This document shows positions 7,655 to 61,577 of a stretch of 64,000 nt of DNA, one piece after another. Position 1 is the first letter of the stretch, and every line of letters begins with the position of its first letter. Below the pieces are notes generated by a model, which was not told where the DNA came from, did no database searches, and saw only the letters and a list, made by a program, of their open reading frames with translations. The position numbers and the translations under genes were made by a program. The stretch comes from an uncultured bacterium (GTDB lineage: Bacteria > Patescibacteriota > Minisyncoccia > Phycocordibacterales > GWA1-40-21), in NCBI GenBank assembly GCA_903832855.1, contig CAILDB010000003.1, positions 15,398 to 79,397 of the forward strand, given 5' to 3'.

Positions 7655-7731
7655 AATTTTAAAATACGACTATTAATAATAGTTACCAGTATATCACAAT
7701 GAAAACTTTTACAAAAGCAAATATGTTGATA

Positions 7732-7799
7732 CCCCGTAGTGAAATTTGCCATTGATTTTTAAAAAGTTGAACTTTTTGATGGCAAATTCTACTACGGGG
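7732..7799. repeat. PR1 palindromic repeat (CCCCGTAGTGAAATTTGCCAT ... ATGGCAAATTCTACTACGGGG)
   Basis: 21-bp arms form a near-perfect inverted repeat around a 26-bp spacer. The right arm is immediately followed by TGATATAAT (7801-7809) and the ATG of the next gene at 7815. Confidence 0.6.
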
Positions 7800-7814
7800 T
7801 GATATAATGTTTAT

Positions 7815-8522
7815 ATGAGTATTAAAAATTGGTTCTTAGGACATATTAAAAGAAAAGCAGAAGAAGAACCTGTTACTATTGCTGAACTCAAAAAAATTGT
7901 TGAAAAAAGGATGTCTATTACAAATGATGAATTCCAAAAAGGATACGAGCTCATAGAAAAATATCCTCGTTCTGTCAGCATTTTGGGTTCTGCAAGATTT
8001 AATGAGGACAACAAATATTATCAGGCGGCAAGGTCATTAGGTTATAGAATAGCCAAGGAGCTCAAATATGCTGTCGTGACAGGCGGAGGGCCTGGAATTA
8101 TGGAAGCAGCAAATAGAGGCGCGTATGAGGCAAGAGGCAAATCACTTGGCTTCACAATTAAACTTCCAAAGGAACAGAAAGTAAATAAATATGTGACAGA
8201 GTTTGTTGAATTTGAATATTTCTTTAGCAGAAAGACGATACTTTTCTTTTCCGCCGAATGCTATGTTTATTTTCCGGGAGGATTCGGGACATTGGATGAA
8301 TTACTTGAAATTGTGACTTTAATACAAACAAAAAAGATTCCCAGAACACCGGTTATTTTAGTCGGTAGAGAATTTTGGCAACCATTTATTGATTTAATGA
8401 AAACAAAACTTTTAGACGAAAATGAAACAATCAGTCCAGATGATATTAATATTTATCAAATAGTTGATTCCGAAGACGAAATATTAAAAATAATTAAAAA
8501 CGCTCCGTTTAGACAGGAATAA
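7815..8522 (+). CDS. LOG-family protein (TIGR00730 Rossmann-fold, cytokinin riboside 5'-monophosphate phosphoribohydrolase-like)
   Basis: 235 aa. GGGPGIMEA and PGGFGTLDEL motifs. Confidence 0.8.
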   Translation: MSIKNWFLGHIKRKAEEEPVTIAELKKIVEKRMSITNDEFQKGYELIEKYPRSVSILGSARFNEDNKYYQAARSLGYRIAKELKYAVVTGGGPGIMEAANRGAYEARGKSLGFTIKLPKEQKVNKYVTEFVEFEYFFSRKTILFFSAECYVYFPGGFGTLDELLEIVTLIQTKKIPRTPVILVGREFWQPFIDLMKTKLLDENETISPDDINIYQIVDSEDEILKIIKNAPFRQE

Positions 8523-8523
8523 C

Positions 8524-8683
8524 AAAGCAAAAAGGTTTTTGTAAAAAATAACCTCGTAGCAAAATGCTTTTGAATTGACTTGGGAGCGCGACGGCGCGAG
8601 CACGAGGAATTTTTTAGCAAAAAAATATCCGTGCAATTCAAAAGCTTTTTGTGGAGAGGTTTTTACAAAAACCTTTTTGCTTT
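8524..8683. repeat. Nested palindromic GC-rich repeat, family A core, filling the convergent intergenic gap
   Basis: The outer 24-bp perfect inverted repeat AAAGCAAAAAGGTTTTTGTAAAAA / TTTTTACAAAAACCTTTTTGCTTT encloses the core TTTTGAATTGACTTGGGAGCGCGACGGCGCGAGCACGAGGAATTTTTTAGCAAAAAAATATCCGTGCAATTCAAAAG. The same core is at 23349-23435 and 25838-25925. Confidence 0.55.
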
Positions 8684-8691
8684 CTTTTTCC

Positions 8692-9009
8692 TTATTTAAT
8701 AGAAGTAATCTCCACTTTAAAATATGGCTGTCTGTGTCCGTTCTTTTTAAAATATCTGCTTTTTTGTTTGTAGTGAATAACTGTAACTGTAGGAAGTTTA
8801 CCAATTTCTATGATTTTCCCCTCTACTTTTGCACCATCAATAAAAGGAGTTCCGATAGTAGTATCTTTGCCGTTATCCACAAGCAAAACCTTATCAAAAA
8901 CGACTTTATCGCCTTCTTTGAAGTCATCCCCGAGCTTTTCTATTTCCAAGAAATCGCCCTTTGACGCTTTGTATTGTTTTCCACCTGTTTTTATAACTGC
9001 AAATTCCAT
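8692..9009 (-). CDS. rplU: 50S ribosomal protein L21
   Basis: MEFAVIKTGGKQYKASKGDFLEIEKL... is a typical L21 N-terminus. The ORF-track start at 9045 adds 12 unlikely residues. Confidence 0.85.
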   Translation of the reverse strand: MEFAVIKTGGKQYKASKGDFLEIEKLGDDFKEGDKVVFDKVLLVDNGKDTTIGTPFIDGAKVEGKIIEIGKLPTVTVIHYKQKSRYFKKNGHRQPYFKVEITSIK

Positions 9010-11300: not shown

Positions 11301-11342
11301 TACTACTATTATAATTCATAATAAAAGAAAAGGCAAAATCAA

Positions 11343-11377
11343 AAAGCCCGCGAATGAGAATTCGCGGGCTTTTTGAT
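11343..11377. terminator. Bidirectional intrinsic terminator hairpin
   Basis: AAAAAGCCCGCGAATgagaATTCGCGGGCTTTTT. Confidence 0.55.
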
Positions 11378-11384
11378 TTCTGTC

Positions 11385-12422
11385 TTATTTTATAATTTCG
11401 TATTTCCCGTCCTTATTTTTTCTGAAAAACTTTTTGTTTTGTAGGTTTATGATAATCGTATTTTCTTTCACATATCTCTCCTTCAAAACCTTTGTAATTA
11501 CATCCTCTTTTGTCATTGGACCATTCTTTTCTATCAAACCCCTGATGACATCTTTGACCACTCCAGAAGCATAACCCCACTCTTTAAGAGCGTAAAGTCC
11601 TCTTCCGACAAGCACAAATCTAGGATCTTTAATGAGCTCGTTGTGTGTGGTAGCAATGTGCGCTTTTTTATTAAATGTCGCTGTGATTGCTTTTGCAACT
11701 TCTTTGAAGTGAATTGGTGAACCGTGTCTTCTGATGACAAGAAAGGCATAATCCCTCATACCTTTTGTACTGATGTTTGGCGATTCTGTTCTTCCCCATT
11801 CACCGAGAGCATTTTTACCAATTTTTTTGGAAAGAGTAAGCCATCTTTTTGCAATCTCCTGATTTTTGTATTGTTCAGAAACACCTTCAAGATATGTCAA
11901 AAAGTTTTTGATAATATCTTCTTCAGAAAGTAGGTCTTCATATTTCAAACTTTCATAAAGTTTCCTCAAAGCACCGTGGACCTTGTCTGCAAGATCAGCC
12001 TCAATAAACCATCTGTGTTTAAAATCCTCGTCTTCTTTAAATTTATTAAATGGATGTCCGATAACAAGAATAAAGTTCATACAACTCTGTATAGAAGGTT
12101 CAGTAGAAATTGTATCCAATAATTCCTTTTCTGTAACTATTCCACCGAGTTTGTGAATTAATTTTTCTGTCTCTTCAAAAGCCGGCTTTTCTGCACCATA
12201 TTGTTCTGATTTTCTGATAATATCAATAGCGTGATTTTCTATTTGTCTGACTCTTTCTCTGGTAATCCCATATGTTTTACCAATTGCATCAAGAGTCATC
12301 GGCTCAGGATCTTTTCCGAGGCCATATCTTTTTGTAATAATGTCTATAGATCTATCAGATAGAGCTGACAATAATCTCTTCACAACTTGCTTTGGCTTAA
12401 AACTAATTGATGATGTTGACAT
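11385..12422 (-). CDS. Sigma-70 region-4-like HTH domain protein with a long unknown C-terminal domain
   Basis: The N-terminus LDAIGKTYGITRERVRQIENHAIDIIRK matches the sigma-70 region 4 HTH. There is no region 2, and the 250-aa C-terminal part is unassigned. Confidence 0.5.
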   Translation of the reverse strand: MSTSSISFKPKQVVKRLLSALSDRSIDIITKRYGLGKDPEPMTLDAIGKTYGITRERVRQIENHAIDIIRKSEQYGAEKPAFEETEKLIHKLGGIVTEKELLDTISTEPSIQSCMNFILVIGHPFNKFKEDEDFKHRWFIEADLADKVHGALRKLYESLKYEDLLSEEDIIKNFLTYLEGVSEQYKNQEIAKRWLTLSKKIGKNALGEWGRTESPNISTKGMRDYAFLVIRRHGSPIHFKEVAKAITATFNKKAHIATTHNELIKDPRFVLVGRGLYALKEWGYASGVVKDVIRGLIEKNGPMTKEDVITKVLKERYVKENTIIINLQNKKFFRKNKDGKYEIIK

Positions 12423-17123: not shown

Positions 17124-17195
17124 GGCTCTATCGTCTAACGGTTAGGACATAGCCTTCTCAAGGCTAGAATCGCGGTTCGATTCCGCGTAGAGTCA
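17124..17195 (+). tRNA. tRNA-Glu (anticodon CUC)
   Basis: Manual cloverleaf. Acceptor GGCTCTA/TAGAGTC, D-arm GTCT-AACGGTTA-GGAC, anticodon arm TAGCC-TTCTCAA-GGCTA (CTC), T-arm CGCGG-TTCGATT-CCGCG. No CCA encoded. Confidence 0.8.
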
Positions 17196-17363
17196 CAAAA
17201 ATTTGCGGAGCATAATTTTTGTGATTTTTAAACGCAAAAGTTTTTGCGTTTAAAAAGAATCGAAAGACGGAGGCCGACGGGCCGAGTCGGGGTCGCAAGA
17301 TTTTTCAGCAGAAAAATACTTGTGACCGAAAGCGTACTCGCGTTTCCGCGTAGAGTCACAAAT
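17181..17363. repeat. Direct duplication of the tRNA-Glu 3' end (TCCGCGTAGAGTCACAAA at 17181-17198 and 17345-17362) bracketing a ~150-bp GC-rich structured element (module B)
   Basis: The second copy lies 164 nt downstream of the first. The intervening GACGGAGGCCGACGGGCCGAGTCGGGGTCGCAAGATTTTTCAGCAGAAAAATACTTGTGACCGAAAG is homologous to 51130-51205 and 19290-19345. Confidence 0.5.
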
Positions 17364-17467
17364 TTAGTAACTCGTGACTACATAAATAGTTTCCATAATT
17401 TCTATTGCATTTTTTATATAAAAGAATAGTATTGAATTTAGAAGATCTTAAACACAGGAAGGATAAT

Positions 17468-19206: not shown

Positions 19207-19225
19207 AACCTAATATTACCACAAA

Positions 19226-19492
19226 AAATCTCGCAAGAAAAATTTGAAAATTTTGCTAGGGGTGGCGATCCTGTTCCTTTTGAAATACATTGCGCAGGCC
19301 GACTGGGCCGAGCATAACAAATTTTCAGCAGAATATTACTTCGACGAGCGAGGAGCAAGGTGGAAAATCTTATTTTACATCTTGTCCGAGCGAAGTCGAA
19401 GCAAGAAGATTCTTATCTTCTTATGTGCGTATTTCAAAAGGAATAGGTCGACAGGACCCCGTGAAATTTTCTAATTTTTCTTGCGAGATTTT
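19226..19492. repeat. Composite GC-rich nested-palindrome repeat (family A ends + module B + 7085-type module)
   Basis: Outer 31-bp inverted repeat AAAAATCTCGCAAGAAAAATTTGAAAATTTT / AAAATTTTCTAATTTTTCTTGCGAGATTTTT (one mismatch). Inner ends GCTAGGGGTGGCGATCCTGTTCCTTTTGAA ... AAAAGGAATAGGTCGACAGGACCCCGTGAAATTTT are shared with the 23333 and 25824 copies. Fills the ftsI-murF gap. Confidence 0.6.
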
Positions 19493-19495
19493 TAC

Positions 19496-23292: not shown

Positions 23293-23303
23293 AGATACGG
23301 ATG

Positions 23304-23481
23304 ACACAAAATTAAGAGACTGAAAATTTTGTTAGGGGTGGCGATCCTGTTCCTTTTGAACTGACTTGGGAGGCTGACTGAGCCGAGCACGAGGAATTTT
23401 TTAGCAAAAAAATATCCGTGCAGTTCAAAAGGAATAGGTCGACAGGACCCCGTGAAATTTTCAGTCTTTTAATTTTGTGTC
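23304..23481. repeat. Composite nested-palindrome repeat, family A
   Basis: Outer inverted repeat ACACAAAATTAAGAGACTGAAAATTTT / AAAATTTTCAGTCTTTTAATTTTGTGT. Inner sequence GTTAGGGGTGGCGATCCTGTTCCTTTTGAACTGACTTGGGAGGCTGACTGAGCCGAGCACGAGGAATTTTTTAGCAAAAAAATATCCGTGCAGTTCAAAAGGAATAGGTCGACAGGACCCCGTGAAATTTT. Confidence 0.6.
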
Positions 23482-24943
23482 AATTTTTAGGAGGTCTAAG
23501 AAGTGGAAAAATCTGACATTCTTTTGCTGGTTTGTTCATCAAGAAACTAAACAATCTTTCAGAAAGCCCGAAGCCACAAGTTGGTGGCATTCCATATTCC
23601 ATTGCTTCCACAAATTCCCCATCCGTCATCTGCGCCTCCTCATCACCCTCTTCTAAAAGTTTTGCCTGTTCCATAAATCTATCCATCTGATCTATCGGAT
23701 CATTAAGCTCACTAAATCCCTTACCCATTTCAGAACCAGCAAGAATCACCTGAAATCTTTCTACTAAATTTGTATCCTTTTCCATTCTCTTTGCAAGTGG
23801 TTCCATCATCACAGGAACATTTATAAGAAATCCCGGACCTGCGATTTGCTTTCTGCAATATTTCCACAAATTATCTACTGCTCTATTCAAATTAAAACCT
23901 TTTTTATTATCATACTCCACTTTCAATTCCCTAAGTTTTTTTTCAATTTCAGGAAGTTTTGCAGAAGTAACATCCACATCGGTCATTTTTTTAATTATTT
24001 CTACATAATCATAAATTTCCCATTCTTTTTCAAAATCAATTTCAAAATCTTTTATTTTAAACTTCATCGTGCCAAATGTTTCCATCGCAACTCTTCTGTA
24101 AAGTTCTTTTATCAATTCCATTCCCTGATTGTAGTCCGCATACGCCCAGTAAAATTCCATCATTGAATAATCCTGCAAATGTTCGGCATCCATTCCTTCG
24201 TTTCGAAAATTTCTACCAATTTCAAAAACTTTTGGAAAACCAGCAATCATAAGACGCTTGAGCCAAAGCTCAGGAGAAATTCTCAAATAAATATCTAGGT
24301 CAAGTGCATTATGATGTGTGATAAAAGGTCTCGCCTCTGCACCTCCCGGAACAGATTCTAAAATAGGCGTCTCAACTTCCATAAAACTTTTTTCTACCAG
24401 AAAACTTCTGATAGACGCCCAGAATTTTTCTCTTTTTATTATAATCTCTTTTACATCCTCATTAAAAAGAATATCTAAATATCTTTTGCGGAGTTTTTCT
24501 TCTTCATCTTGAAGCCCGTGCCATTTTTCAGGAAGTGGTCGCAAACTTTTTGAAAGCATTTTCCAAGAAGTTACCTGCAATGTTTTCTCGCCTCTTTTGG
24601 TAGTAAAAAGTGTTCCTCCAACCTCTATAAAATCGCCAATATCAATGACTTTTTGGAAAAAATCAAATGTTTCAGCTCCTATATCATCTTTCTTGATAAG
24701 CCCTTGAAACTTGGCCGTGCCATCGTAAATATTAAAAAATACCAAAGCTCCCTGCTCGCGAAGTGACATTAGTCTCCCGGTAAGATGAATATCTTTATTT
24801 TCTAAAAGTGAATCGTATTTTTCTATAACCTCGTTCAATGAAAAATCCCTTCTGGATGATGATGGGTAAGGATTTACTCCAGCATCTCTTAAGATTTTTA
24901 ATTTCTCTATTCTATTATTTCTTATTTCTACTAATGAACTCAT
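23480..24943 (-). CDS. lysS: Lysyl-tRNA synthetase (class II)
   Basis: 487 aa. N-terminal OB anticodon-binding fold and class II motifs 1-3. Confidence 0.95.
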   Translation of the reverse strand: MSSLVEIRNNRIEKLKILRDAGVNPYPSSSRRDFSLNEVIEKYDSLLENKDIHLTGRLMSLREQGALVFFNIYDGTAKFQGLIKKDDIGAETFDFFQKVIDIGDFIEVGGTLFTTKRGEKTLQVTSWKMLSKSLRPLPEKWHGLQDEEEKLRKRYLDILFNEDVKEIIIKREKFWASIRSFLVEKSFMEVETPILESVPGGAEARPFITHHNALDLDIYLRISPELWLKRLMIAGFPKVFEIGRNFRNEGMDAEHLQDYSMMEFYWAYADYNQGMELIKELYRRVAMETFGTMKFKIKDFEIDFEKEWEIYDYVEIIKKMTDVDVTSAKLPEIEKKLRELKVEYDNKKGFNLNRAVDNLWKYCRKQIAGPGFLINVPVMMEPLAKRMEKDTNLVERFQVILAGSEMGKGFSELNDPIDQMDRFMEQAKLLEEGDEEAQMTDGEFVEAMEYGMPPTCGFGLSERLFSFLMNKPAKECQIFPLLRPPKN

Positions 24944-25805: not shown

Positions 25806-25958
25806 CCAAAAATTTTGTTAGGGGTGGCGATCCTGTTCCTTTTGAACTGACTTGGGAGCGCGACTGGCGCGAGCACGAGGAATTTTTTAGCAAAAAAATA
25901 TCCGTGCAGTTCAAAAGGAATAGGTCGACAGGACCCCGTGAAATTTTTCGGCTGAAAA
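25806..25958. repeat. Composite nested-palindrome repeat, family A
   Basis: GTTAGGGGTGGCGATCCTGTTCCTTTTGAACTGACTTGGGAGCGCGACTGGCGCGAGCACGAGGAATTTTTTAGCAAAAAAATATCCGTGCAGTTCAAAAGGAATAGGTCGACAGGACCCCGTGAAATTTTT, about 95% identical to the 23333 copy, with short flanking inverted repeats. Confidence 0.6.
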
Positions 25959-32630: not shown

Positions 32631-32645
32631 TTAGATATTCTATCA

Positions 32646-32716
32646 CCCCGTAGTGAATTTTGCCATCAGGTTTTCAGAAAAACCCAATGTTTTCAAATGG
32701 CAAAATCTACTACAGG
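32646..32716. repeat. PR1 palindromic repeat (CCCCGTAGTGAATTTTGCCAT ... ATGGCAAAATCTACTACAGGG)
   Basis: 21-bp inverted arms. On the rseP strand the arm is followed by TGATAGAAT and then the rseP ATG about 15 nt on. Confidence 0.6.
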
Positions 32717-32734
32717 GTATCAAAAAAACTGAAA

Positions 32735-34807: not shown

Positions 34808-34930
34808 ATTTCTGTCATTCCCGTGCATACGGGAATCCATCCCCTCCGTCTTTGCGAGGGTATTCCCGAAGCAACCTAGTTCTGATTCTCTAGATTGCCA
34901 CGTCGGAAACCTCCTCGCAATGACAGACAA
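34808..34930. repeat. GTCATTCC hairpin repeat (family 2) with flanking TTTNTGTCATT inverted ends
   Basis: TCTGTCATTCCCGtgcataCGGGAATCCATCCC... Hairpin units of the same design recur at 37795 and 38371. Confidence 0.5.
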
Positions 34931-34997: not shown

Positions 34998-35183
34998 TCA
35001 ATACCGATACTCGCGTATTGCCGAGTTATCACAATCAAGGCACTTACGCCGACTTCGCACGACTCTCCCCAACCTCATCGGATGTGTGCCTCTTCTGCTT
35101 GATGGCAACGAACCCGTGCGCCATCTTACATTAATACACTTTTCACATAGTGCCATTCGTCTTACCTTGACCTTTTTAGCCAT
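34998..35183 (-). CDS. Hypothetical 61-aa basic zinc-ribbon protein (GC-rich)
   Basis: GGAG SD before the ATG at 35183. Protein is MAKKVKVRRMALCEKCINVRWRTGSLPSSRRGTHPMRLGRVVRSRRKCLDCDNSAIREYRY, with CxxC...CxxC. It does not align convincingly to L28, L33 or S14. Confidence 0.45.
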   Translation of the reverse strand: MAKKVKVRRMALCEKCINVRWRTGSLPSSRRGTHPMRLGRVVRSRRKCLDCDNSAIREYRY

Positions 35184-35250
35184 AAGAACACTCCTTTCTT
35201 TTCTCCTAAAAAATACTAGCACAATCAAGTCATAGCAACAAGCGAATGAG

Positions 35251-35410
35251 TGTTGCCATATTTCAGTGTCCGCAGGCGAGCTTGCAAGGCGCGATGTGGT
35301 GTAATTTTGTTGAGCGTAATCGCGAGACAAAACTATACCAACAGCGCAAGCCGCCGAGGATTAGGAAATTTTCCGGCTGGGGAAAATTTCTGCACTGAAA
35401 TATGGCAATA
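35251..35410. mobile_element. 160-bp GC-rich structured element (family 3, copy 1) with 18-bp terminal inverted repeats and flanking 8-bp direct repeat CGAATGAG
   Basis: Terminal inverted repeats TGTTGCCATATTTCAGTG / CACTGAAATATGGCAATA. CGAATGAG sits at 35243-35250 and again at 35411-35418. About 95% identical to 40956-41115. Confidence 0.5.
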
Positions 35411-35421
35411 CGAATGAGCCT

Positions 35422-36441
35422 CTATCTCTTCGCAATAATAGATTTCTTGTAAACATCCAAATGTTCCAGAGCAATTCCTGTACCTTTTGCCACACAGTAA
35501 AGCGGATCTTTTGCCACGACGGCTTTCACACCAGTTCTGCGAAAAACGAGCTCCGCCATATTGCGAAGCATTGATGAACCGCCTGTCAAAATAATTCCCC
35601 TGTCAATAATATCTGCAGAAAGTTCCGGTGGCGTCTCTTGCAAAACATCTTTTATCGCTTTTATCATATCTCGAAGCTCGCGTGAAATTGCTTTTACAAT
35701 TTCATTTGTTTTTATTTCTGTTGAACGAGGAAGTCCTGTCAGAAAATCGCGTCCTTTGATAGTCAGCGAAAGTTCTTCTTCCATCGGCACAGCACTTCCA
35801 ATTTTTATTTTAATTTCTTCAGCAGTTTTATCTCCAATTGCAAGATTGAAAGTTTTTTTAATATAATCGGCAATAGCAGCATCAATTTTATTTCCAGCAC
35901 ATTTCACGGAAGTTGAAGAAACAATTCCTCCAAGAGAAATCACCGCCACATCTGTCGTCCCTCCGCCAATATCCACCACCATATTTCCCATCGGTTCGTA
36001 AATTGGAATTCCTGCGCCGATAGCAGCGAGAATCGGCTCTTTGACAACATAAGCATTTTTGGCTCCTGCTTTTATTGCAGCTTCTATCACCGCGCGTCTT
36101 TCTGTGGAAGTCACACCAGCTGGAACAGAAATCATAACTTCTGGTTTAAAAATATTCCATTTGCCGAGTGCTTTGTTTATAAAATATTTGAGCATTGCTT
36201 CCGTCACGCGATAATCAGCGATAACTCCGTCTTTCATCGGTCTGTAAGCGATAATGCTATCTGGCGTTTTTCCAATCATTTTTTTTGCTTCTTCACCGAC
36301 GGCGAGAATTTTGTTGTCTTGTTCAGAAACCGCAACCACAGATGGCTCAAAGAGAACCACACCTTTCCCCGGCAAAAAAACGAGAGTGCTCGTTGTTCCT
36401 AAGTCAATTCCAATTTTTCTGATAAAAAATGACATATTCAC
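35422..36441 (-). CDS. Second MreB/Mbl-like actin homologue
   Basis: 339 aa. IGIDLGTTSTLVF...DIGGGTTD. Distinct from the mreB at 28693. Confidence 0.85.
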   Translation of the reverse strand: MNMSFFIRKIGIDLGTTSTLVFLPGKGVVLFEPSVVAVSEQDNKILAVGEEAKKMIGKTPDSIIAYRPMKDGVIADYRVTEAMLKYFINKALGKWNIFKPEVMISVPAGVTSTERRAVIEAAIKAGAKNAYVVKEPILAAIGAGIPIYEPMGNMVVDIGGGTTDVAVISLGGIVSSTSVKCAGNKIDAAIADYIKKTFNLAIGDKTAEEIKIKIGSAVPMEEELSLTIKGRDFLTGLPRSTEIKTNEIVKAISRELRDMIKAIKDVLQETPPELSADIIDRGIILTGGSSMLRNMAELVFRRTGVKAVVAKDPLYCVAKGTGIALEHLDVYKKSIIAKR

Positions 36442-37794: not shown

Positions 37795-37830
37795 TCTGTC
37801 ATTCCTGCGTAGGCAGGAATCAAGAATAAA
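37795..37830. repeat. GTCATTCC hairpin repeat (family 2) unit
   Basis: TCTGTCATTCCTGCgtagGCAGGAATCA immediately after the murA stop. Confidence 0.45.
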
Positions 37831-38276: not shown

Positions 38277-38320
38277 ATTTTTATAAAATTTTATTTATTA
38301 ATTTCGACAACTTCATTCTA

Positions 38321-38344
38321 CTCTCTCTCTCTCTCTCTCTCTCT
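38321..38344. repeat. (CT)12 dinucleotide microsatellite
   Basis: CTCTCTCTCTCTCTCTCTCTCTCT read directly. Confidence 0.9.
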
Positions 38345-38370
38345 TGCAAGTTCGGGTTTGTGGACAACTT

Positions 38371-38437
38371 CTCTGGATTCCCGCCTTCGCGGGAATGACA
38401 GAAGGGATGGATTCCGTTCTCCAACGGAATGACGGAG
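38371..38437. repeat. Two tandem GTCATTCC-type hairpin units (family 2, opposite orientation)
   Basis: GGATTCCCGCcttcGCGGGAATGAC then ...GGATTCCGTTctccaaCGGAATGAC. Stem bases co-vary relative to the 34814 and 37800 copies. Confidence 0.45.
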
Positions 38438-38495
38438 AATGCAAGTACAGATATTGAAAAAGAAGCTGTTTTGTGGCAGAATGCTAAGAATGAAT

Positions 38496-38631
38496 CCCGT
38501 AGTAGAATTTCAAATTACTGCCTTTCGTTTTTTACTATAGGGTTGCCATTTTATCGAAATTATCAACATATTAATTAGAGTTTCAAATTGTAAATAGGGC
38601 AGTAAAAAACAATTTGAAATTTCACTACAGG
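38496..38631. repeat. PR1 repeat, long-spaced form (CCCGTAGTAGAATTTCAAATT ... AATTTGAAATTTCACTACAGG)
   Basis: The right arm ends at 38631, and the priA ATG is at 38632. Confidence 0.55.
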
Positions 38632-40533
38632 ATGAAACTTATTGAAGTCATACCTATTTCTAGGGGCATACCAAAGGAGTCGTTGAACTATTTTTCGTCT
38701 GTTGCCGTGCCTGTGGGCTCGGTGGTGAAAGTTCCTCTTCGAAAGAAAATTATTCCAGCAATTGTCGTGTCGGAAAGAGATGTGGAAGAAGCAAAATCAG
38801 ATATCAAGAATTCTTCTTTTCCGCTCAGGAAAATTGAGAAAGCAAAATTCGCGAAATTTTTGACTTCGGATTTTGTGGAGGCCGGAAGAGAGACGGCAAA
38901 ATATTTTGCTGGCTCCACGGGCTCCGTTTTGTTTTCTTTGGTTCCAAAAGTTCTGCTTGAAAATGTGGAAAAAATAAAAATTCATAAGATTGAAGAGGCA
39001 GAAAATAAAAAAACTCAACATCATGAAAAATATGTTGTGCAGGCAACCGACGAAGAAAGATACGCAAATTATAAAAGTTTGATAAGAGAAGAGTTTGCAA
39101 AAAACTTGTCTGTTTTCTTTTGCTTGCCGACAATTCAAGATATTAAAAAAGCAACCGAAAAACTGCAGAAAGGAATAGAAAAATACACTTACATTTTGCA
39201 CGGTTCATTGAACGAAAAAGAAATAATAGAAACAGTCAATAAAATTCTCGCTGAAACACACCCTGTCTTGATCATAGGCACAGGAGGCTTTCTATCCATA
39301 CCAAGGTCCGACCTTGGCACTCTCATAATAGACAGAGAAAATTCTAGAGCATACAAAAATCAAGGACGACCATATCTAGATATCAGATATTTTGCGGAAA
39401 AGTATGCCGAACAAGCAAAAATAAAATTGGTATTTGGCGACTTACTTTTAAGGACGGAAACAATCTGGCGATTTAAAAATGGAGAGTTAGTAGAAATTTC
39501 TCCTTTGAAATTCAGATCACTTTCCACTATGACCGAGGAAATTATAGAAATGAAAGAAATTTCAGAAAATTCACTAGAGAAAAAGAAATTCAGAGTGATA
39601 AGTGACAGGTTGGAGGGCTTAATAAAGAAAAATATAGAAAATAACGAGCATCTTTTTATTTTTGTCGGTAAAAGAGGTCTCTCGCCTTCTGTCGTTTGCG
39701 CTGATTGCGGGACGATAGTGGCCTGTAGAACCTGTGGTGCTCATACCGTGCTTCACAAAGCATCGGAGGAAAACTTTTTCCTTTGTCATAAATGCGGAGA
39801 AAGGAGAAGTGCACTAGAAAAATGCGCAAAATGCGATAGCTGGAAACTCACGACTCTTGGAATTGGTTCAGAGCTCATTGAACAAATGCTTTTAGAAAAA
39901 TTCCCCAACCAAAAAATATTTAAACTTGACTCGGATAGTTCGCCAACACACAAAAAGGCCTCACAAATAATAGAAAAGTTTTATGCCTCTCCGCAAGGAA
40001 TTCTCATCGGTACAGAAATGGCACTTTTGTATCTTACAGAGAAAATTGAAAATTCTGCGGTTGTTTCAATGGATTCTTTTTTCTCAATTCCTGATTATAG
40101 AATAAATGAAAGAGTTTTAAATATTTTGCTTAAAATTAGGTCAATTACAGACAGAAATTTTATTATTCAGACAAGGGACTCTTCACAAAAGGTCTTTGAC
40201 TATGCTTCCAAAGGAAATCTCATTGATTTTTATAAAGATGAAATTTATATGAGAGAAAAACTCGGCTATCCACCTTTTTCTGTACTTATAAAAATAATAA
40301 TTGCCGGAACAAAAAATGAGGTTTTACAAAGTGTGGAATATTTACAAAAAGAACTCACACCATTTGAAATAAATGTTTTTCCTGCTTTCATCCCCGGAGC
40401 CAAAGGCAAATATGCCGTCAATGGAATTGTAAAAATCCCAAAAAAGGACTGGCCAAATGAAAAAATTCTCGGTGTCCTCAAAACCCTTCCACCAAACTTC
40501 TCGGTAAATATAGATCCGGAGAGTTTACTTTAA
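38632..40533 (+). CDS. priA: Primosomal protein N' (PriA)-like, with degenerate Walker A / DExH motifs
   Basis: ORF-track frame starts at 38614; the ATG at 38632 is the likely start. C-terminal CxxC zinc-binding cluster CADCGTIVACRTCGAHTVLHKASEENFFLCHKCGERRSALEKCAKC. Motif I is HGSLNEKE instead of GxGKT, and motif II is LIIDRENS instead of DEEH. Confidence 0.75.
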   Translation: MKLIEVIPISRGIPKESLNYFSSVAVPVGSVVKVPLRKKIIPAIVVSERDVEEAKSDIKNSSFPLRKIEKAKFAKFLTSDFVEAGRETAKYFAGSTGSVLFSLVPKVLLENVEKIKIHKIEEAENKKTQHHEKYVVQATDEERYANYKSLIREEFAKNLSVFFCLPTIQDIKKATEKLQKGIEKYTYILHGSLNEKEIIETVNKILAETHPVLIIGTGGFLSIPRSDLGTLIIDRENSRAYKNQGRPYLDIRYFAEKYAEQAKIKLVFGDLLLRTETIWRFKNGELVEISPLKFRSLSTMTEEIIEMKEISENSLEKKKFRVISDRLEGLIKKNIENNEHLFIFVGKRGLSPSVVCADCGTIVACRTCGAHTVLHKASEENFFLCHKCGERRSALEKCAKCDSWKLTTLGIGSELIEQMLLEKFPNQKIFKLDSDSSPTHKKASQIIEKFYASPQGILIGTEMALLYLTEKIENSAVVSMDSFFSIPDYRINERVLNILLKIRSITDRNFIIQTRDSSQKVFDYASKGNLIDFYKDEIYMREKLGYPPFSVLIKIIIAGTKNEVLQSVEYLQKELTPFEINVFPAFIPGAKGKYAVNGIVKIPKKDWPNEKILGVLKTLPPNFSVNIDPESLL

Positions 40534-40545
40534 ATTAAAGCGAGG

Positions 40546-40573
40546 TTGACAAGTTTAGTCAGAAATGTATAAT
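40546..40573 (+). promoter_or_regulatory. Canonical sigma-70-type promoter (TTGACA-16-TATAAT)
   Basis: TTGACA at 40546-40551 and TATAAT at 40568-40573. AAAAGGAGGT SD before the ATG at 40612. Confidence 0.5.
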
Positions 40574-40611
40574 TTTATTGGATGTAAATAGTAAACAAAA
40601 GGAGGTACACA

Positions 40612-40866
40612 ATGCCAATTCTAGGCGTAAAGATAGTAATAGTTCCAGATCAAGAAAACGGAATAGTGAAAATCATAAATGATCATCCAGGTTCGCAGTC
40701 TATGATATACAACCATATCTTGATCATCTATGATGATGGTACTTTCAAACTCATAGCAGCAATAGCGAAATCTTTCGGGCAGCATGGGGCCCGCACAATT
40801 GCTCTGGGAGTATCGTATGGTCTGCCGATTGAAACCGATCCAGACTTCTACAAAAAACTCAAGTAA
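40612..40866 (+). CDS. Hypothetical 84-aa protein (stand-alone cassette)
   Basis: MPILGVKIVIVPDQENGIVKIINDHPGSQSMIYNHILIIYDDGTFKLIAAIAKSFGQHGARTIALGVSYGLPIETDPDFYKKLK. Own promoter and terminator. Confidence 0.5.
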   Translation: MPILGVKIVIVPDQENGIVKIINDHPGSQSMIYNHILIIYDDGTFKLIAAIAKSFGQHGARTIALGVSYGLPIETDPDFYKKLK

Positions 40867-40870
40867 GCTA

Positions 40871-40920
40871 CCCACCAACGGGAAGGAAAATTCATCCTTC
40901 TGTGCGGTGGGTTTTTCTTT
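40871..40920 (+). terminator. Rho-independent terminator
   Basis: CCCACCaacgGGAAGGAaaattcaTCCTTCtgtgcGGTGGG followed by TTTTTCTTTT. Confidence 0.55.
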
Positions 40921-40955
40921 TGCAAAAATTTTGCTAAATAAAATAAACGAGCCAG

Positions 40956-41115
40956 TGTTGTCATATTTCTGTGTCCGCAGGCGAGCTTGCATGGCGCGAT
41001 GTGGTGTAATTTTGCGAAGTGTATTCACGAGCAAAACTATACCAACAGCGCAAGCCGCCGAGGATTAAGAAATTTTCCGGCTGGGGAAAATTTCTGCACA
41101 AAAATATGACAATAC
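40956..41115. mobile_element. 160-bp GC-rich structured element (family 3, copy 2)
   Basis: Terminal inverted repeats TGTTGTCATATTTCTGTG / CACAAAAATATGACAATA. Interior is about 95% identical to 35251-35410, and terminal-stem and internal-hairpin positions carry compensatory changes. Confidence 0.5.
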
Positions 41116-41155
41116 TGGCGAGTTTTTATTTAACAAAATTTTTGTAAAAGAAAAC

Positions 41156-43350: not shown

Positions 43351-43558
43351 AGGCACAAACTGGGAAATAGATGAGCAATACGCGAGTTATCTTCGGTAGG
43401 CATCAGCTACGGCCGAAAAGGAGCTCTCGTCCCATCAGCTTGTTGGCGAGGTAATGGCTCACCAAGGCTCACGGGTAGCTAGCGCGAGAGGGTCGCTGGC
43501 CATGCAGTTTGCGCTTAGCTCCGTTCCAATGTAATGTTGGGCGGAGCGCCTTTTTTTT
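43351..43558 (+). ncRNA. Putative ~210-nt small RNA whose body mimics 16S rRNA (E. coli positions ~180-310, helices h8-h12), with its own intrinsic terminator
   Basis: CCCATCAGCTTGTTGGCGAGGTAATGGCTCACCAAGGCTCACGGGTAGCTAGCGCGAGAGGGTCGCTGGCCAT compares with the bacterial 16S consensus GATTAGCTAGTTGGTGAGGTAATGGCTCACCAAGGCGACGATCCGTAGCTGGTCTGAGAGGATGATCAGCC. Ends in GCGCT..CCG/CGGAGCGCC followed by TTTTTTTT (43509-43558). Intergenic between serS and dprA. Confidence 0.35.
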
Positions 43559-51025: not shown

Positions 51026-51096
51026 GGGAGATTAGTGAAATGGTATCACAAGGCACTCCAAACGCTTTAGTGGGGGTTCGATTCCTCCATCTCCCG
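51026..51096 (+). tRNA. tRNA-Trp (anticodon CCA)
   Basis: Acceptor GGGAGAT/ATCTCCC, D-arm GTGA-AATGGTA-TCAC, anticodon arm AGGCA-CTCCAAA-CGCTT (CCA; 31-39 mismatch), T-arm GGGGG-TTCGATT-CCTCC, discriminator G. Boundaries +/-1 nt. Confidence 0.7.
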
Positions 51097-51227
51097 CAAA
51101 AAATCTCATTTATGAGTTTTTTTATGGAGGAATCGAAGACCGGAGCGCGACGGCGCGAGGCGGGGTCGAGCAAATTTTCAGCAGAAAATTATGCGTGACC
51201 GAACTTCCTACATCTCCCGCAATAATC
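51081..51227. repeat. Direct duplication of the tRNA-Trp 3' end (TTCCTCCATCTCCCGCAAAAAATC / CTTCCTACATCTCCCGCAATAATC) bracketing a ~105-bp GC-rich module-B element
   Basis: The inserted GACCGGAGCGCGACGGCGCGAGGCGGGGTCGAGCAAATTTTCAGCAGAAAATTATGCGTGACCGAAC is homologous to 17268-17340 (at tRNA-Glu), with compensatory GGCC/GGCC to GCGC/GCGC hairpin changes. Confidence 0.5.
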
Positions 51228-53252: not shown

Positions 53253-53634
53253 GTATTGCCCTTGCGCCTATAAGCCGAATTCTGTCCACTCGTTTTTACA
53301 CGAGATGTACGATTATTTGTCTGGGCCAAATGTTGCCACTTGGCTCGTGCGACAACTCCTCTTGCGAGGCACGTGTCTTGCTCTCAGGTAAGGATTTAGC
53401 CGTTGCATTTTTGCCTTTCGACAAAACTATTCCCGAAGGAACCCTAGCCTTTCGGCATCGGCGTTTCTGTTCGCACCTCTTAGATTTCTCTATGCGGGCG
53501 TTACCCGCTACCCTTGTTCGCGGAATTTTTCGGCTCTGTCTCAGAGCCAAAAAATTCCGCGAGCCGAGAGTTCGGACTTTCCTCCAAACATCACCGAAGT
53601 GATGTTCAGCAATCGTCCAGCGCAATGGCAAAAA
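53253..53634 (-). ncRNA. rnpB: RNase P RNA, bacterial type
   Basis: Minus strand contains GGAGGAAAGTCCGAACTC (P4 5' strand), AAGGGTAGCGGGTAACGCCCGC, AACAGAAACGCCGATG and ACAGAATTCGGCTTAT (P4 3' strand). P1 pairs TTGCCATTGCGCTGG with AGGCGCAAGGGCAA. Both ORF-track ORFs here (53240..53602 + and 53296..53655 -) are spurious. Confidence 0.8.
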
Positions 53635-53677
53635 ACATAATATCATAGCCCCCAAAATAACGCAAGTTTTACCTTGA

Positions 53678-53813
53678 CCCCGTAGTAGATTTTTGGCTTG
53701 ATTTTTTTTGGGCCGACACGAGTATTCTATCCATATTTATAGCCATTTTTTATATTTTGATACACAATTGCTTAGTTGAAAAAAATCGGCCAAAGCCAAA
53801 AATTCACTACAGA
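53678..53813. repeat. PR1 repeat, long-spaced form (CCCCGTAGTAGATTTTTGGC ... GCCAAAAATTCACTACAGAG)
   Basis: Arms are about 100 bp apart, between the rnpB 5' end and the promoter of the 53906 operon. Confidence 0.5.
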
Positions 53814-53814
53814 G

Positions 53815-53843
53815 TTGACTTTTAACCTCAAAGGTGCTATTAT
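53815..53843 (+). promoter_or_regulatory. Canonical sigma-70-type promoter (TTGACT-17-TATTAT)
   Basis: TTGACT at 53815-53820 and TATTAT at 53838-53843, upstream of the GC-rich operon. Confidence 0.5.
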
Positions 53844-60198: not shown

Positions 60199-60226
60199 GA
60201 TTATTTTTAATGTGTTAATTATACCA

Positions 60227-60247
60227 CCCCGTAATAGAATTTGCCAT
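60227..60247. repeat. Single PR1 arm (CCCCGTAATAGAATTTGCCAT) fused to TGGTATAAT on the methyltransferase strand
   Basis: The minus strand reads ATGGCAAATTCTATTACGGGG-TGGTATAAT-(20 nt)-ATG of the 59671..60198 gene. No partner arm was found. Confidence 0.35.
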
Positions 60248-61544: not shown

Positions 61545-61577
61545 GTTGCGGGAAAGAAAATTTTTGCAAAAGAAAAC

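What the first reader, a model, noticed from the sequence alone, without database searches (positions are those of the whole stretch)
35243..35418. 160-bp GC-rich element in two ~95%-identical copies with 18-bp terminal inverted repeats, an 8-bp flanking direct repeat, and compensatory base changes (MITE or structured ncRNA)
The copies at 35251-35410 and 40956-41115 have identical length. Their termini TGTTGCCATATTTCAGTG/CACTGAAATATGGCAATA and TGTTGTCATATTTCTGTG/CACAAAAATATGACAATA pair 16/16 and 15/16, with the differences between copies being compensatory (C-G to T-A, A-T to T-A). An internal hairpin switches GCG-taat-CGC to GTG-tatt-CAC, again compensatory, and a perfect GAAATTTTCC-ggctg-GGAAAATTTC hairpin is conserved. 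Copy 1 is flanked by the direct repeat CGAATGAG on both sides, which looks like a target-site duplication. Copy 2 lacks it. Compensatory substitutions argue for selection on base-pairing, as in an RNA or a cruciform. The putative duplication argues for transposition. It could be a non-autonomous element derived from an IS-associated guide or omega-type RNA, or a mobile sRNA gene.
Basis: seen in the sequence. Interest (0 to 1): 0.6.

Follow-up and report, generated by a model that had tools for sequence, protein, structure and literature searches.

The report
Mobile hairpin repeat in a Patescibacteria genome
A 160-base non-coding element that folds into a Y-shaped hairpin sits at different gene ends in two related ultra-small (Minisyncoccia) bacteria; it behaves like a small mobile repeat whose base-pairing is kept by selection, a known kind of element in a phylum where I found none described.

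Summary
Copy 1 is 35251-35410 and copy 2 is 40956-41114. They are 91% identical (not 95%) and 160 and 159 nt long. Copy 1 has an exact 8-bp flanking direct repeat, CGAATGAG.

The element folds into a closing stem plus two arms (-81 kcal/mol, z -8.6). Four base pairs differ between the copies by compensatory double changes (P about 1e-6 by simulation). No Rfam family matches, and the 64-kb window encodes no transposase.

Copy 2 is nested inside a further ~40-bp AT-rich inverted-repeat shell. A third copy, 93-96% identical and carrying the same shell, lies in the loop of the gyrA terminator hairpin of a related Minisyncoccia species. Related genomes lack the element at all three sites, although synonymous sites between the two species are nearly saturated.

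Best reading: a low-copy, non-autonomous, structure-constrained mobile repeat of the MITE / bcr1 type. It belongs to a wider set of nested hairpin repeats in this genome that sit in terminator loops. The omega-RNA / IS200-IS605 idea is not supported.

I could not determine transcription, the mobilising enzyme, an exact empty site, or the genome-wide copy number.

The parts
35251..35410 (+). Core element, copy 1 (160 nt), without the outer shell. The + strand is the better-folding 'top' strand.
   Evidence: model R1, 185.6 bits. dG is -81.1 kcal/mol on + (z -8.6) and -69.5 on -.
35243..35250 (.). Left copy of the 8-bp direct repeat CGAATGAG, a putative target-site duplication.
   Evidence: The chance of an exact 8-mer at fixed positions is 5.7e-5.
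35411..35418 (.). Right copy of the 8-bp direct repeat CGAATGAG. It ends 3 nt before the MreB stop codon (35422-35424, - strand).
35251..35269 (+). 5' strand of the 19-bp closing stem, which is the left terminal inverted repeat. It pairs with 35392-35410.
   Evidence: helix 1: two double-sided changes; G.U at pairs 2/160 and 19/143 in all copies.
35392..35410 (+). 3' strand of the closing stem, which is the right terminal inverted repeat.
35270..35359 (+). Long GC-rich arm made of stacked helices, with an apical GCG-UAAU-CGC hairpin that reads GUG-UAUU-CAC in copy 2.
   Evidence: helices 2-5.
35364..35391 (+). AT-rich 11-bp hairpin, GGAAATTTTCC-GGCTGG-GGAAAATTTCT.
   Evidence: helix 6; pair 115/142 changes from G.U to A-U.
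40956..41114 (+). Core element, copy 2 (159 nt).
   Evidence: 185.7 bits.
40913..40955 (+). Left arm of the outer AT-rich inverted-repeat shell around copy 2 (TTTTCTTTTGCAAAAATTTTGCTAAATAAAATAAACGAGCCAG).
   Evidence: (I2, I4). The inner ~30 nt are shared with the L020/L008 copy.
41115..41154 (+). Right arm of the shell (CTGGCGAGTTTTTATTTAACAAAATTTTTGTAAAAGAAAA). A T-run follows the stem on both strands, so it looks like a bidirectional terminator.
   Evidence: The terminator reading is inference.

Best explanation
This is a low-copy, non-autonomous mobile DNA repeat of Minisyncoccia (Patescibacteria). It is about 160 bp, non-coding, and almost wholly self-complementary: a 19-bp terminal stem encloses a long GC-rich arm and an AT-rich hairpin.

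Shown:
- Copies lie at non-orthologous gene-end sites in two related species and are missing from those sites in relatives.
- Base pairing is maintained by compensatory changes.
- One copy is flanked by an 8-bp direct repeat.
- Two copies sit inside an AT-rich palindromic shell. In one case that shell occupies the loop of a host terminator hairpin whose empty form is seen in a relative.

Inferred:
- It is moved in trans by an enzyme encoded elsewhere. The terminal repeats and the 8-bp duplication suggest staggered-cut insertion.
- Insertions persist where a self-folding insert is harmless or useful, that is, at gene 3' ends and in the apical loops of terminator hairpins. There the insert draws the terminator arms together, and the composite still reads as a large bidirectional terminator.
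- The pairing constraint acts on a single-stranded form of one particular strand. G.U wobbles are kept on the top strand, so this form is either the transcript or a single-stranded mobility intermediate.
For: Structure:
- dG is -81 and -71 kcal/mol with z about -8.7, and no shuffle folds as well.
- 98% of cells are paired, against 36-53% when the partners are slid.
- There are four compensatory double changes, with P about 1.5e-6 under random substitution.

Mobility:
- A third copy in L008/L020/L021 is 93-96% identical, and the shell is shared at 95% over 219 nt.
- That host's gyrA is only 80% identical in nucleotides and 54% at third codon positions.
- The gyrA-methyltransferase gap is empty in L023/L024 and in L027/L028. 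L027 keeps the intact hairpin AAAGAAAAAAGT-CGAGTAAAA-ACTTTTTTCTTT. In L025 a different repeat family occupies the same hairpin loop.
- The closest relative has a 6-nt MreB-delta' gap and a 74-nt PriA-FtsQ-like gap where the window has copies 1 and 2.
- The chance of the 8-bp direct repeat is 5.7e-5.

Other points:
- No coding capacity and no Rfam match.
- Strand polarity: G.U pairs at 2/160, 19/143, 52/87 and 115/142 on the + strand, against one A.C. The sister family shows the same polarity, and the polarity flips with the element in L013.
- Precedent: bcr1 of the Bacillus cereus group is ~155 bp, has 5-bp direct repeats, a non-conserved distribution, is transcribed and shows compensatory changes (review PMC3184786, read).
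Against: - Only three copies are known: two in this window and one in a relative.
- An exact 20-mer invariant in the three copies had no true match in 185,579 species-representative genomes. A second such 20-mer had a single true match in the JGI metagenome contigs. The family is therefore rare, which is unlike a typical MITE burst.
- Only one of the three copies shows the 8-bp direct repeat. No exact empty site was found for copy 1.
- No transposase with matching ends was found.
- Orientation relative to flanking transcription is inconsistent. The top strand of copy 1 is antisense to mreB, so RNA-level selection by read-through is not clearly supported.
- Three sequences give little statistical power. 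In the tool's own shuffle control, 25 of 500 shuffles reached the observed covariation.
Confidence: 0.6

Rival explanations
1. It is a classical double-stranded cut-and-paste MITE. A DDE transposase encoded elsewhere binds the two terminal inverted repeats and makes an 8-bp staggered cut. The hairpin potential is a by-product. Matched changes in the two ends reflect co-evolution with the transposase, or arm-to-arm correction within the palindrome, rather than selection on folding.
For: 18-19-bp terminal repeats and an exact 8-bp direct repeat at copy 1. Dispersed, non-orthologous copies. Two of the four compensatory pairs lie in the terminal repeats, where concerted change of both ends is also expected under protein recognition.
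Against: Two compensatory pairs lie in internal helices far from the ends (66/73 and the UUUUGU stem). G.T wobbles are conserved on one strand only, which neither double-stranded recognition nor arm-to-arm repair predicts. No transposase was found, and copies 2 and L020 show no 8-bp duplication.
Confidence: 0.2
2. It is a functional small RNA or cis-acting RNA gene that has been duplicated. The Y-shaped RNA is the product, for example a protein-binding RNA, an RNase III substrate or an unusual terminator. Its scattered positions would reflect gene duplication and loss rather than transposition.
For: Strong fold and compensatory changes. Unpaired positions are nearly as conserved as paired ones: 5 of 39 vary against 11 of 122. 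G.U pairs favour one strand. All copies lie at gene ends.
Against: No Rfam family matches. No convincing promoter for the top strand. The orientation to neighbouring genes differs between copies. The element is absent from close relatives at all three sites. There is a flanking direct repeat. Its 93-96% identity across species contrasts with saturated synonymous sites and non-orthologous positions.
Confidence: 0.12
3. It is a non-autonomous derivative of an IS200/IS605-type element (a PATE, or an omega/reRNA remnant), or a REP/REPIN mobilised by a RAYT. These move as single-stranded DNA through an HUH (Y1) transposase.
For: Strand-specific folding signal. Residence in hairpin contexts. A separate REP-like 25-nt hairpin family exists in the window.
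Against: The element has true terminal inverted repeats that pair end to end, and a flanking 8-bp direct repeat. By established knowledge, IS200/IS605 ends are non-identical subterminal hairpins and leave no duplication. No TnpA, TnpB or IscB domain was found in 64 kb. The element is far larger than a REP and has no 5' GTAG.
Confidence: 0.05
4. The similarity results from a local segmental duplication or an assembly artefact and has no biological meaning.
For: The copies are only 5.7 kb apart.
Against: The same two copies are present in an independent ENA metagenome assembly (L001). A third copy exists in another species from independent JGI and ENA assemblies. The similarity stops sharply at the element or shell ends. 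The covariation is non-random.
Confidence: 0.01

Closest known systems
bcr1 repeats of the Bacillus cereus group (Klevan et al. 2007 and Kristoffersen et al. 2011, as summarised in Delihas 2011, PMC3184786)
   Same: About 155-160 bp and non-coding. Non-conserved genomic distribution between related genomes. Flanked by a short direct repeat. Folds into a long cruciform-like structure kept by compensatory base changes.
   Different: bcr1 has a 5-bp direct repeat, tens to hundreds of copies, and shown transcription. Here the repeat is 8 bp and seen at one copy only, only 3 copies are known, and transcription is untested. There is no sequence similarity and the phylum is different.
Bacterial MITEs with stable RNA folds: Correia/NEMIS (Neisseria), ERIC/IRU (enterobacteria), RUP/BOX/SPRITE (pneumococcus) (PMC3184786; details from my own knowledge)
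   Same: Small intergenic elements with terminal inverted repeats, located at gene ends, that fold as long hairpins. Some act as terminators (SPRITE, Correia) or are modular or nested (BOX; ERIC with internal inserts).
   Different: No sequence relation. Those families have known or suspected IS partners and high copy numbers. The Y-shaped three-helix layout and the AT-rich shell are particular to this element.
IS1397/ISKpn1-type insertion into the loops of REP palindromes, and IS110/IS1111 elements that target REPs (from my own knowledge, not tested)
   Same: Insertions end up in the apex of pre-existing hairpins, so the host palindrome flanks the insert, as in L020 against L027 and in L025.
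   Different: Those are autonomous IS elements with transposase genes. Here the inserts are 100-240-bp non-coding hairpins. Whether loop residence reflects targeting or merely survival is not known.
GC-rich palindromic selfish repeats of AT-rich organelle genomes: yeast mitochondrial GC clusters, double-hairpin elements of chytrid mitochondrial DNA, Volvox palindromic repeats (PMC2670323 listed; the rest from my own knowledge)
   Same: GC-richer, self-folding short elements scattered in the intergenic DNA of an AT-rich small genome. They are often nested, and the mobilising enzyme is unidentified.
   Different: Organellar rather than bacterial, usually shorter and in very high copy number. No sequence relation.
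REP/REPIN-RAYT systems
   Same: Structure-conserved extragenic palindromes at gene ends, with strand polarity.
   Different: REPs are 20-40 nt with a 5' GTAG and occur in hundreds of copies next to a single RAYT gene. The 160-nt element lacks these features. A separate REP-like family does exist in the window.

Membership tests
Bacterial MITE | Short (<~400 bp) with no coding capacity | tested here: met
   159-160 nt. Only spurious overlapping ORFs.
Bacterial MITE | Terminal inverted repeats | tested here: met
   Ends match 17/18 and 16/18 and form a 19-bp closing stem (I25).
Bacterial MITE | Target-site duplication flanking the copies | tested here: inconclusive
   Exact 8-bp CGAATGAG at copy 1 (chance 5.7e-5). 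Copies 2 and L020 have none of that length. At most there is a 4-bp CGAG outside a CCAG/CTGG extension, with a 4-mer chance of 6.7e-3. No alignable empty site was found.
Bacterial MITE | Dispersed copies with presence/absence differences between related genomes | tested here: met
   Three copies at three non-orthologous sites in two species. Absent at the orthologous sites of relatives.
Bacterial MITE | A cognate autonomous IS with matching ends | not testable with these tools
   No transposase in the 64-kb window or in the fetched loci.
Structured RNA-level repeat (bcr1/ERIC type) | Compensatory changes that keep the fold | tested here: met
   Four double-sided changes. P about 1.5e-6.
Structured RNA-level repeat (bcr1/ERIC type) | Transcribed | not testable with these tools
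   No expression data. The promoter scan is not informative.
IS200/IS605-derived element (PATE, omega/reRNA) | Different subterminal hairpins at the two ends, no terminal inverted repeat, no duplication | tested here: not met
   The ends pair with each other along 19 bp, and copy 1 has an 8-bp direct repeat.
IS200/IS605-derived element (PATE, omega/reRNA) | Associated tnpA, tnpB or iscB gene | tested here: not met
   None in the window by Pfam or by the precomputed Pfam calls. The rest of the genome was not seen.
Any described RNA family (Rfam 15) | Covariance-model match | tested here: not met
   No match at gathering score or at E <= 10 over the element.
Retron msr-msd RNA | Adjacent reverse-transcriptase gene | tested here: not met
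   The neighbours are mreB, a 61-aa ORF, holB-like delta', an 84-aa ORF and an FtsQ-like gene. No RT domain was found.
Intrinsic (Rho-independent) terminator | Stable hairpin followed directly by a T-run | tested here: inconclusive
   The shell-plus-core composite has CTGGCGAG followed by TTTTTATTT on +, and a T-run on - as well. The scanner cannot call it because the 'loop' is 160 nt. Copy 1, without the shell, has no T-run on either strand.

The most novel reading that the evidence does not exclude
The element may be one member of a superfamily of strand-specific, structure-recognised mobile hairpins in Patescibacteria. Under this reading they insert into the apical loops of existing hairpins: terminators, other copies of themselves, and T-arm-like stems next to tRNA genes. 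This would build nested hairpin-in-hairpin composites. They would move through a single-stranded DNA or RNA intermediate, by an enzyme not yet identified. That would be a mode of transposition not described for non-coding bacterial repeats.
Probability: 0.15. Interest if true: 0.75.

Novelty: new member of a known kind. Interest (0 to 1): 0.45.

Why it matters
Patescibacteria (CPR) genomes are small and are usually thought to be poor in mobile DNA. Two full-text searches of the held library found no paper describing MITE-like or palindromic repeats in them.

This window shows at least four families of structured repeats (A, B, C and a short REP-like hairpin) with compensatory evolution, nested in terminator hairpins. 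One family is shared at 93-96% identity by two species whose synonymous sites are saturated. That points to ongoing exchange of small selfish elements within CPR communities.

It also offers a tractable case for two questions: how self-folding inserts coexist with transcription terminators, and which enzyme moves them.

On the practical side, such repeats break assemblies, mislead ncRNA screens, and could serve as strain markers.

Tried and rejected
- **Rfam.** Searched the whole window at gathering score and at E <= 0.5, and the element at E <= 10. Nothing fell on the element.
- **Exact-pattern scans.** A 27-mer and the 26-nt hairpin in viral contigs gave no match. A 20-mer in JGI metagenome contigs gave 10 matches, of which only L008 is a real copy. 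Another 20-mer in one genome per GTDB species gave one chance match, in Nemorincola.
- **BLAST of the 242-nt composite** against phage and plasmid collections gave no match.
- **Covariance model R1**, run over about 175 kb of Minisyncoccia DNA, found no further copy. It gave only a weak structural hit to family B (25.6 bits).
- **Exact-protein look-ups for strain variants.** MurA and MreB returned only one haplotype of this locus, so no presence/absence polymorphism could be read. The first look-up failed because I used the wrong start codon.
- **Empty-site test for copy 1.** Flanks in the relatives L015, L016, L029 and L030 are too diverged or rearranged to align.
- **Shell-only copies.** None in the held sequence.
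- **Target-motif idea.** The 8-mer CGAATGAG also sits at the apex of an intact terminator at 11336-11379. However, 4 occurrences against 1.75 expected is not significant, and the fourth occurrence is not in a hairpin.
- **Diversity-generating retroelement (template/variable repeat pair).** Rejected because the differences between the copies are not adenine-specific.
- **Replication-strand explanation** for the common orientation of all six large hairpins in the window. Left open, because a family-B copy in L013 is inverted.

Full report
**1. Observation.** The two copies are real. Copy 1 is 35251-35410 (160 nt) and copy 2 is 40956-41114 (159 nt, with a 1-nt deletion). They are 146/160 = 91% identical, not ~95%. 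The ends are inverted repeats, matching 17/18 in copy 1 and 16/18 in copy 2. CGAATGAG abuts both ends of copy 1, at 35243-35250 and 35411-35418. The empirical chance of such an 8-mer repeat at a fixed pair of positions in this window is 5.7e-5. The element is 47.5% G+C in a 37.6% window.

**2. Fold and covariation.**
- The + strand folds into a 19-bp closing stem, a long GC-rich arm of stacked helices and an 11-bp AT-rich hairpin.
- Copy 1 gives -81.1 kcal/mol (z -8.6) and copy 2 gives -70.9 (z -8.7). The - strand is weaker, at -69.5 and -65.8.
- With the third copy (section 5), 98% of pair cells are standard pairs, against 36-53% when the partners are slid by 1-3 columns.
- Three pairs change on both sides: 6/156 CG<->UA, 15/147 AU<->UA and 66/73 CG<->UA. 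A fourth (U-A<->C-G in the UUUUGU/ACAAAA stem) is hidden by a misplaced alignment gap but is plain from the two folds.
- Of the 14 differences between copies 1 and 2, 8 make up these four pairs, one turns G.U into A-U, one breaks a pair (C.A) and the rest are unpaired.
- With 13 random substitutions, P(>=3 compensated pairs) = 2e-4 and P(>=4) = 1.5e-6.
- Caveat: with three sequences the tool's own shuffle control is weak. In it, 25 of 500 shuffles reach the observed score.
- G.U pairs at 2/160, 19/143, 52/87 and 115/142 lie on the + strand, against a single A.C. The folding signal therefore has a strand.

**3.
- Copy 2 is wrapped in a second inverted repeat, 40913-40955 / 41115-41154. The whole 242-nt composite folds at -114.8 kcal/mol.
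- The arms are A/T-rich and end in CGAGCCAG | core | CTGGCGAG followed by TTTTTATTT. On either strand this reads as a stem followed by a T-run.
- If [CCAG-core-CTGG] and one CGAG are removed, the arms form a plain AT hairpin with CGAG in its loop (-26.4 kcal/mol). This reconstruction is an inference.
- Copy 1 has no such shell.

**4. Context and organism.**
- The neighbouring genes are housekeeping genes: mreB, murA, priA, an FtsQ-like gene, serS and a delta'-like holB.
- Sources name the nearest homologues Minisyncoccia or Paceibacterota, which belong to Patescibacteria.
- Copy 1 begins 11 nt after the mreB stop codon. It lies upstream of a promoter-like TTGTTG-17-TAGTAT, which I read by eye, and of a 61-aa CxxC...CxxC ORF.
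- Copy 2 lies between an 84-aa ORF, which has a perfect TTGACA-16-TATAAT promoter and its own terminator, and the convergent FtsQ-like gene.
- Pfam scans of the window's ORFs of 130 aa or more outside the stretch covered by L001, and the precomputed Pfam calls for the genes inside it, show no transposase, integrase, RT, TnpB or IscB domain. Several ORFs have no Pfam hit at all.

**5. Distribution.**
- An independent ENA assembly carries the same locus with both copies (L001).
- One true further copy was found, in JGI contig Ga0247841_10033804 (L008 = L021) and ENA contig L020. It is 93% identical to copy 1 and 96% to copy 2, and it shares the shell at 95% over 219 nt.
- Its host is a relative. 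GyrA is 90% identical in amino acids. The gyrA gene is 80% identical in nucleotides and only 54% at third codon positions. The element is therefore far better conserved than neutral DNA, and it is not at an orthologous site.
- That copy lies between gyrA and a methyltransferase gene. In the window the same gap holds 1.3 kb of other sequence.
- At that gap, L023/L024 have 79 nt and no element. L027/L028 have 83 nt (84 nt from stop to start as printed) with an intact hairpin, AAAGAAAAAAGT-CGAGTAAAA-ACTTTTTTCTTT. L020 has the composite inside the loop of that hairpin. L025 has a different repeat (family B, section 6) inside the same loop.
- At the window's own sites, relatives have ordinary terminators after mreB (L015, L016). 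L030 has a different small ORF there, and in L029 delta' starts 6 nt after mreB. L013 has only 74 nt between priA and the FtsQ-like gene.
- Relatives thus lack the element at all three occupied sites, but the flanks are too diverged to give a base-exact empty site for copy 1.
- The family is rare. An invariant 20-mer has no true match in one genome per GTDB species. Another has one true match in the JGI metagenome contigs. Phage, plasmid and viral collections give nothing. A covariance model finds no further copy in about 175 kb of related loci.

**6. The wider class.**
- The window holds at least five other long structured repeats. They are at 8515-8692, 19224-19493, 23302-23482 and about 25807-25953 (family B, with an inner Y-shaped module and outer layers), and at 17257-17330 and 51130-51203 (family C, next to tRNA-Glu and tRNA-Trp).
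- Four of them (8515, 19224, 23302 and the copy-2 composite) are clearly flanked by further palindromic arms that differ from site to site, that is, by host hairpins. The 25807 copy shows this only partly, and the two family-C copies are flanked instead by a direct repeat of the tRNA 3' end.
- All fold better on the + strand, with 2-5 G.U pairs on + against 0-3 on -. A family-B copy in L013 is inverted, and its G.U-rich strand is inverted with it. The polarity therefore belongs to the element.
- Family C at tRNA-Trp is present at the orthologous site in L020 with a fully compensated hairpin (GCGC-GACG-GCGC against GGCA-GACG-TGCC). It is absent in L022.
- The 12-mer AAAATTTTGYTA occurs exactly five times in the window, each time at an end of a repeat element.

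**7. How it most likely works.**
- *Shown:* the element is dispersed, absent from relatives, structurally constrained and strand-polar. It resides at gene ends. In at least one case it lies inside the loop of a terminator hairpin that exists empty elsewhere.
- *Inferred:* it is non-autonomous and moved in trans. The terminal repeats plus an 8-bp duplication fit a staggered-cut insertion.
- *Inferred:* insertions persist where a self-folding insert does no harm. Terminator loops are such places, because the insert folds on itself, brings the terminator arms together and leaves an A-run / stem / T-run architecture.
- *Open:* whether loop residence reflects targeting or merely survival. Because the G.U polarity is inherited by copies in either orientation to local transcription, the constraint probably acts on the propagating lineage, that is, on a single-stranded mobility intermediate or a top-strand transcript, rather than on each resident copy. 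I give the general statement 0.6 and leave the enzyme unknown.

**8. Comparison with known systems.**
- It works like the structured MITE-type repeats. The best match is bcr1 of the Bacillus cereus group: ~155 bp, short direct repeats, non-conserved positions, compensatory changes (PMC3184786).
- It also resembles Correia, ERIC and SPRITE-type elements, and in its nesting the GC-rich palindromic repeats of AT-rich organelle genomes (my own knowledge for the last point).
- It shares no sequence with any of them.
- It fails the defining features of IS200/IS605-derived elements and omega RNAs, of REPs, of retron RNAs and of every Rfam family.
- Membership as a MITE is met for size, terminal repeats and dispersed presence/absence. 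It is inconclusive for the target-site duplication and untestable for a partner IS.

**9. Verdict.** This is a real feature and a new family of a known kind, in a phylum where I found no such repeats described. Interest is moderate at 0.45. The nested hairpin-in-hairpin pattern, the strand polarity and the between-species identity are the parts worth following up.

Noticed in passing
window 8515-8692, 19224-19493, 23302-23482, 25807-25953; L013 859-1017 (inverted); L025 9792-9941: Family B. These structured repeats have an inner Y-shaped module: closing stem TTTTGAAYTG/CARTTCAAAA, unpaired CUUGGGAG, a small GC hairpin whose stem covaries (GGCT..AGCC against GCGC..GCGC), and an AT-rich hairpin GGAATTTTTTAGCAAAAAAATATCC. 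They also carry optional outer layers and are nested in site-specific palindromes. dG is -69 to -126 kcal/mol, and G.U pairs fall mostly on one strand.
   Followed up: partly
window 17197-17365 (after tRNA-Glu 17124-17196) and 51098-51225 (after tRNA-Trp 51026-51097); L020 about 11850-12000: Family C. A ~75-nt two-hairpin module (GGAG-stem-GACG-stem-GAG plus an AT hairpin with a CAGCAG loop) follows two different tRNA genes. Each is followed by a direct repeat of that tRNA's own 3' end (TTCCGCGTAGAGTCACAAA; CATCTCCCGCAA). The module starts with GAATCGAA, the reverse complement of the T-loop. The tRNA-Trp copy is orthologous in L020 with a fully compensated stem, and is absent in L022. The mechanism is unexplained.
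   Followed up: partly
window 34814-34838 (-), 37798-37822 (-), 38375-38399 (+), 38408-38436 (+): A REP-like short hairpin family, GGATTCCCG-N6-CGGGAATGAC(A/G)GA. Two of them are in tandem upstream of priA (I3, 89, 98). A (CT)n microsatellite lies beside them at about 38318-38345.
   Followed up: partly
window 7731-7800, 32645-32718, 60226-60247 (also 38494-38633 and 53677-53815): A conserved 22-nt motif, ATGGCAAATTCTACTACGGGGT, often occurs as a divergent palindromic pair and runs into G(A/G)TATAAT. It looks like a shared promoter or operator box.
   Followed up: no
window 53255-53628 (-): A bacterial RNase P RNA of class A scores 92.7 bits, just under Rfam's gathering score of 100, so the default scan misses it.
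   Followed up: no
window 43366-43503 (+), between serS and dprA: An intergenic stretch resembles a fragment of small-subunit rRNA (CCCATCAGCTTGTTGGCGAGGTAATGGCTCACCAAGGC...; Rfam SSU model positions 82-247, 33.9 bits, E 8e-6). A promoter-like TTGACT lies upstream and a terminator hairpin with a T-run follows it. It may be a small RNA that mimics 16S rRNA.
   Followed up: no
window 40546-40866; 34998-35183 (-): Two small lineage-specific ORFs lie next to the two copies. One is an 84-aa ORF with a perfect TTGACA-16-TATAAT promoter and is absent in the closest relative, L013. The other is a 61-aa CxxC...CxxC ORF with a strong ribosome-binding site. Relatives carry unrelated small ORFs at that position (L030, L016) but keep a homologous terminator. 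Neither ORF has a Pfam hit.
   Followed up: partly
window 61557-61575 (-) and 40914-40932 (+), 41135-41153 (-): The 19-mer TTTCTTTTGCAAAAATTTT, which forms the outermost layer of the copy-2 composite, also occurs alone just after the gyrA stop codon. In the relative L020 that position holds the composite. There are 3 matches against 0.06 expected.
   Followed up: partly
window 11336-11379: An intact bidirectional terminator, AAATCAAAAAGCCCGCGAAT-GAGA-ATTCGCGGGCTTTTTGATTT, carries at its apex the same 8-mer (CGAATGAG) that flanks copy 1. This is not statistically significant: 4 occurrences against 1.75 expected.
   Followed up: yes
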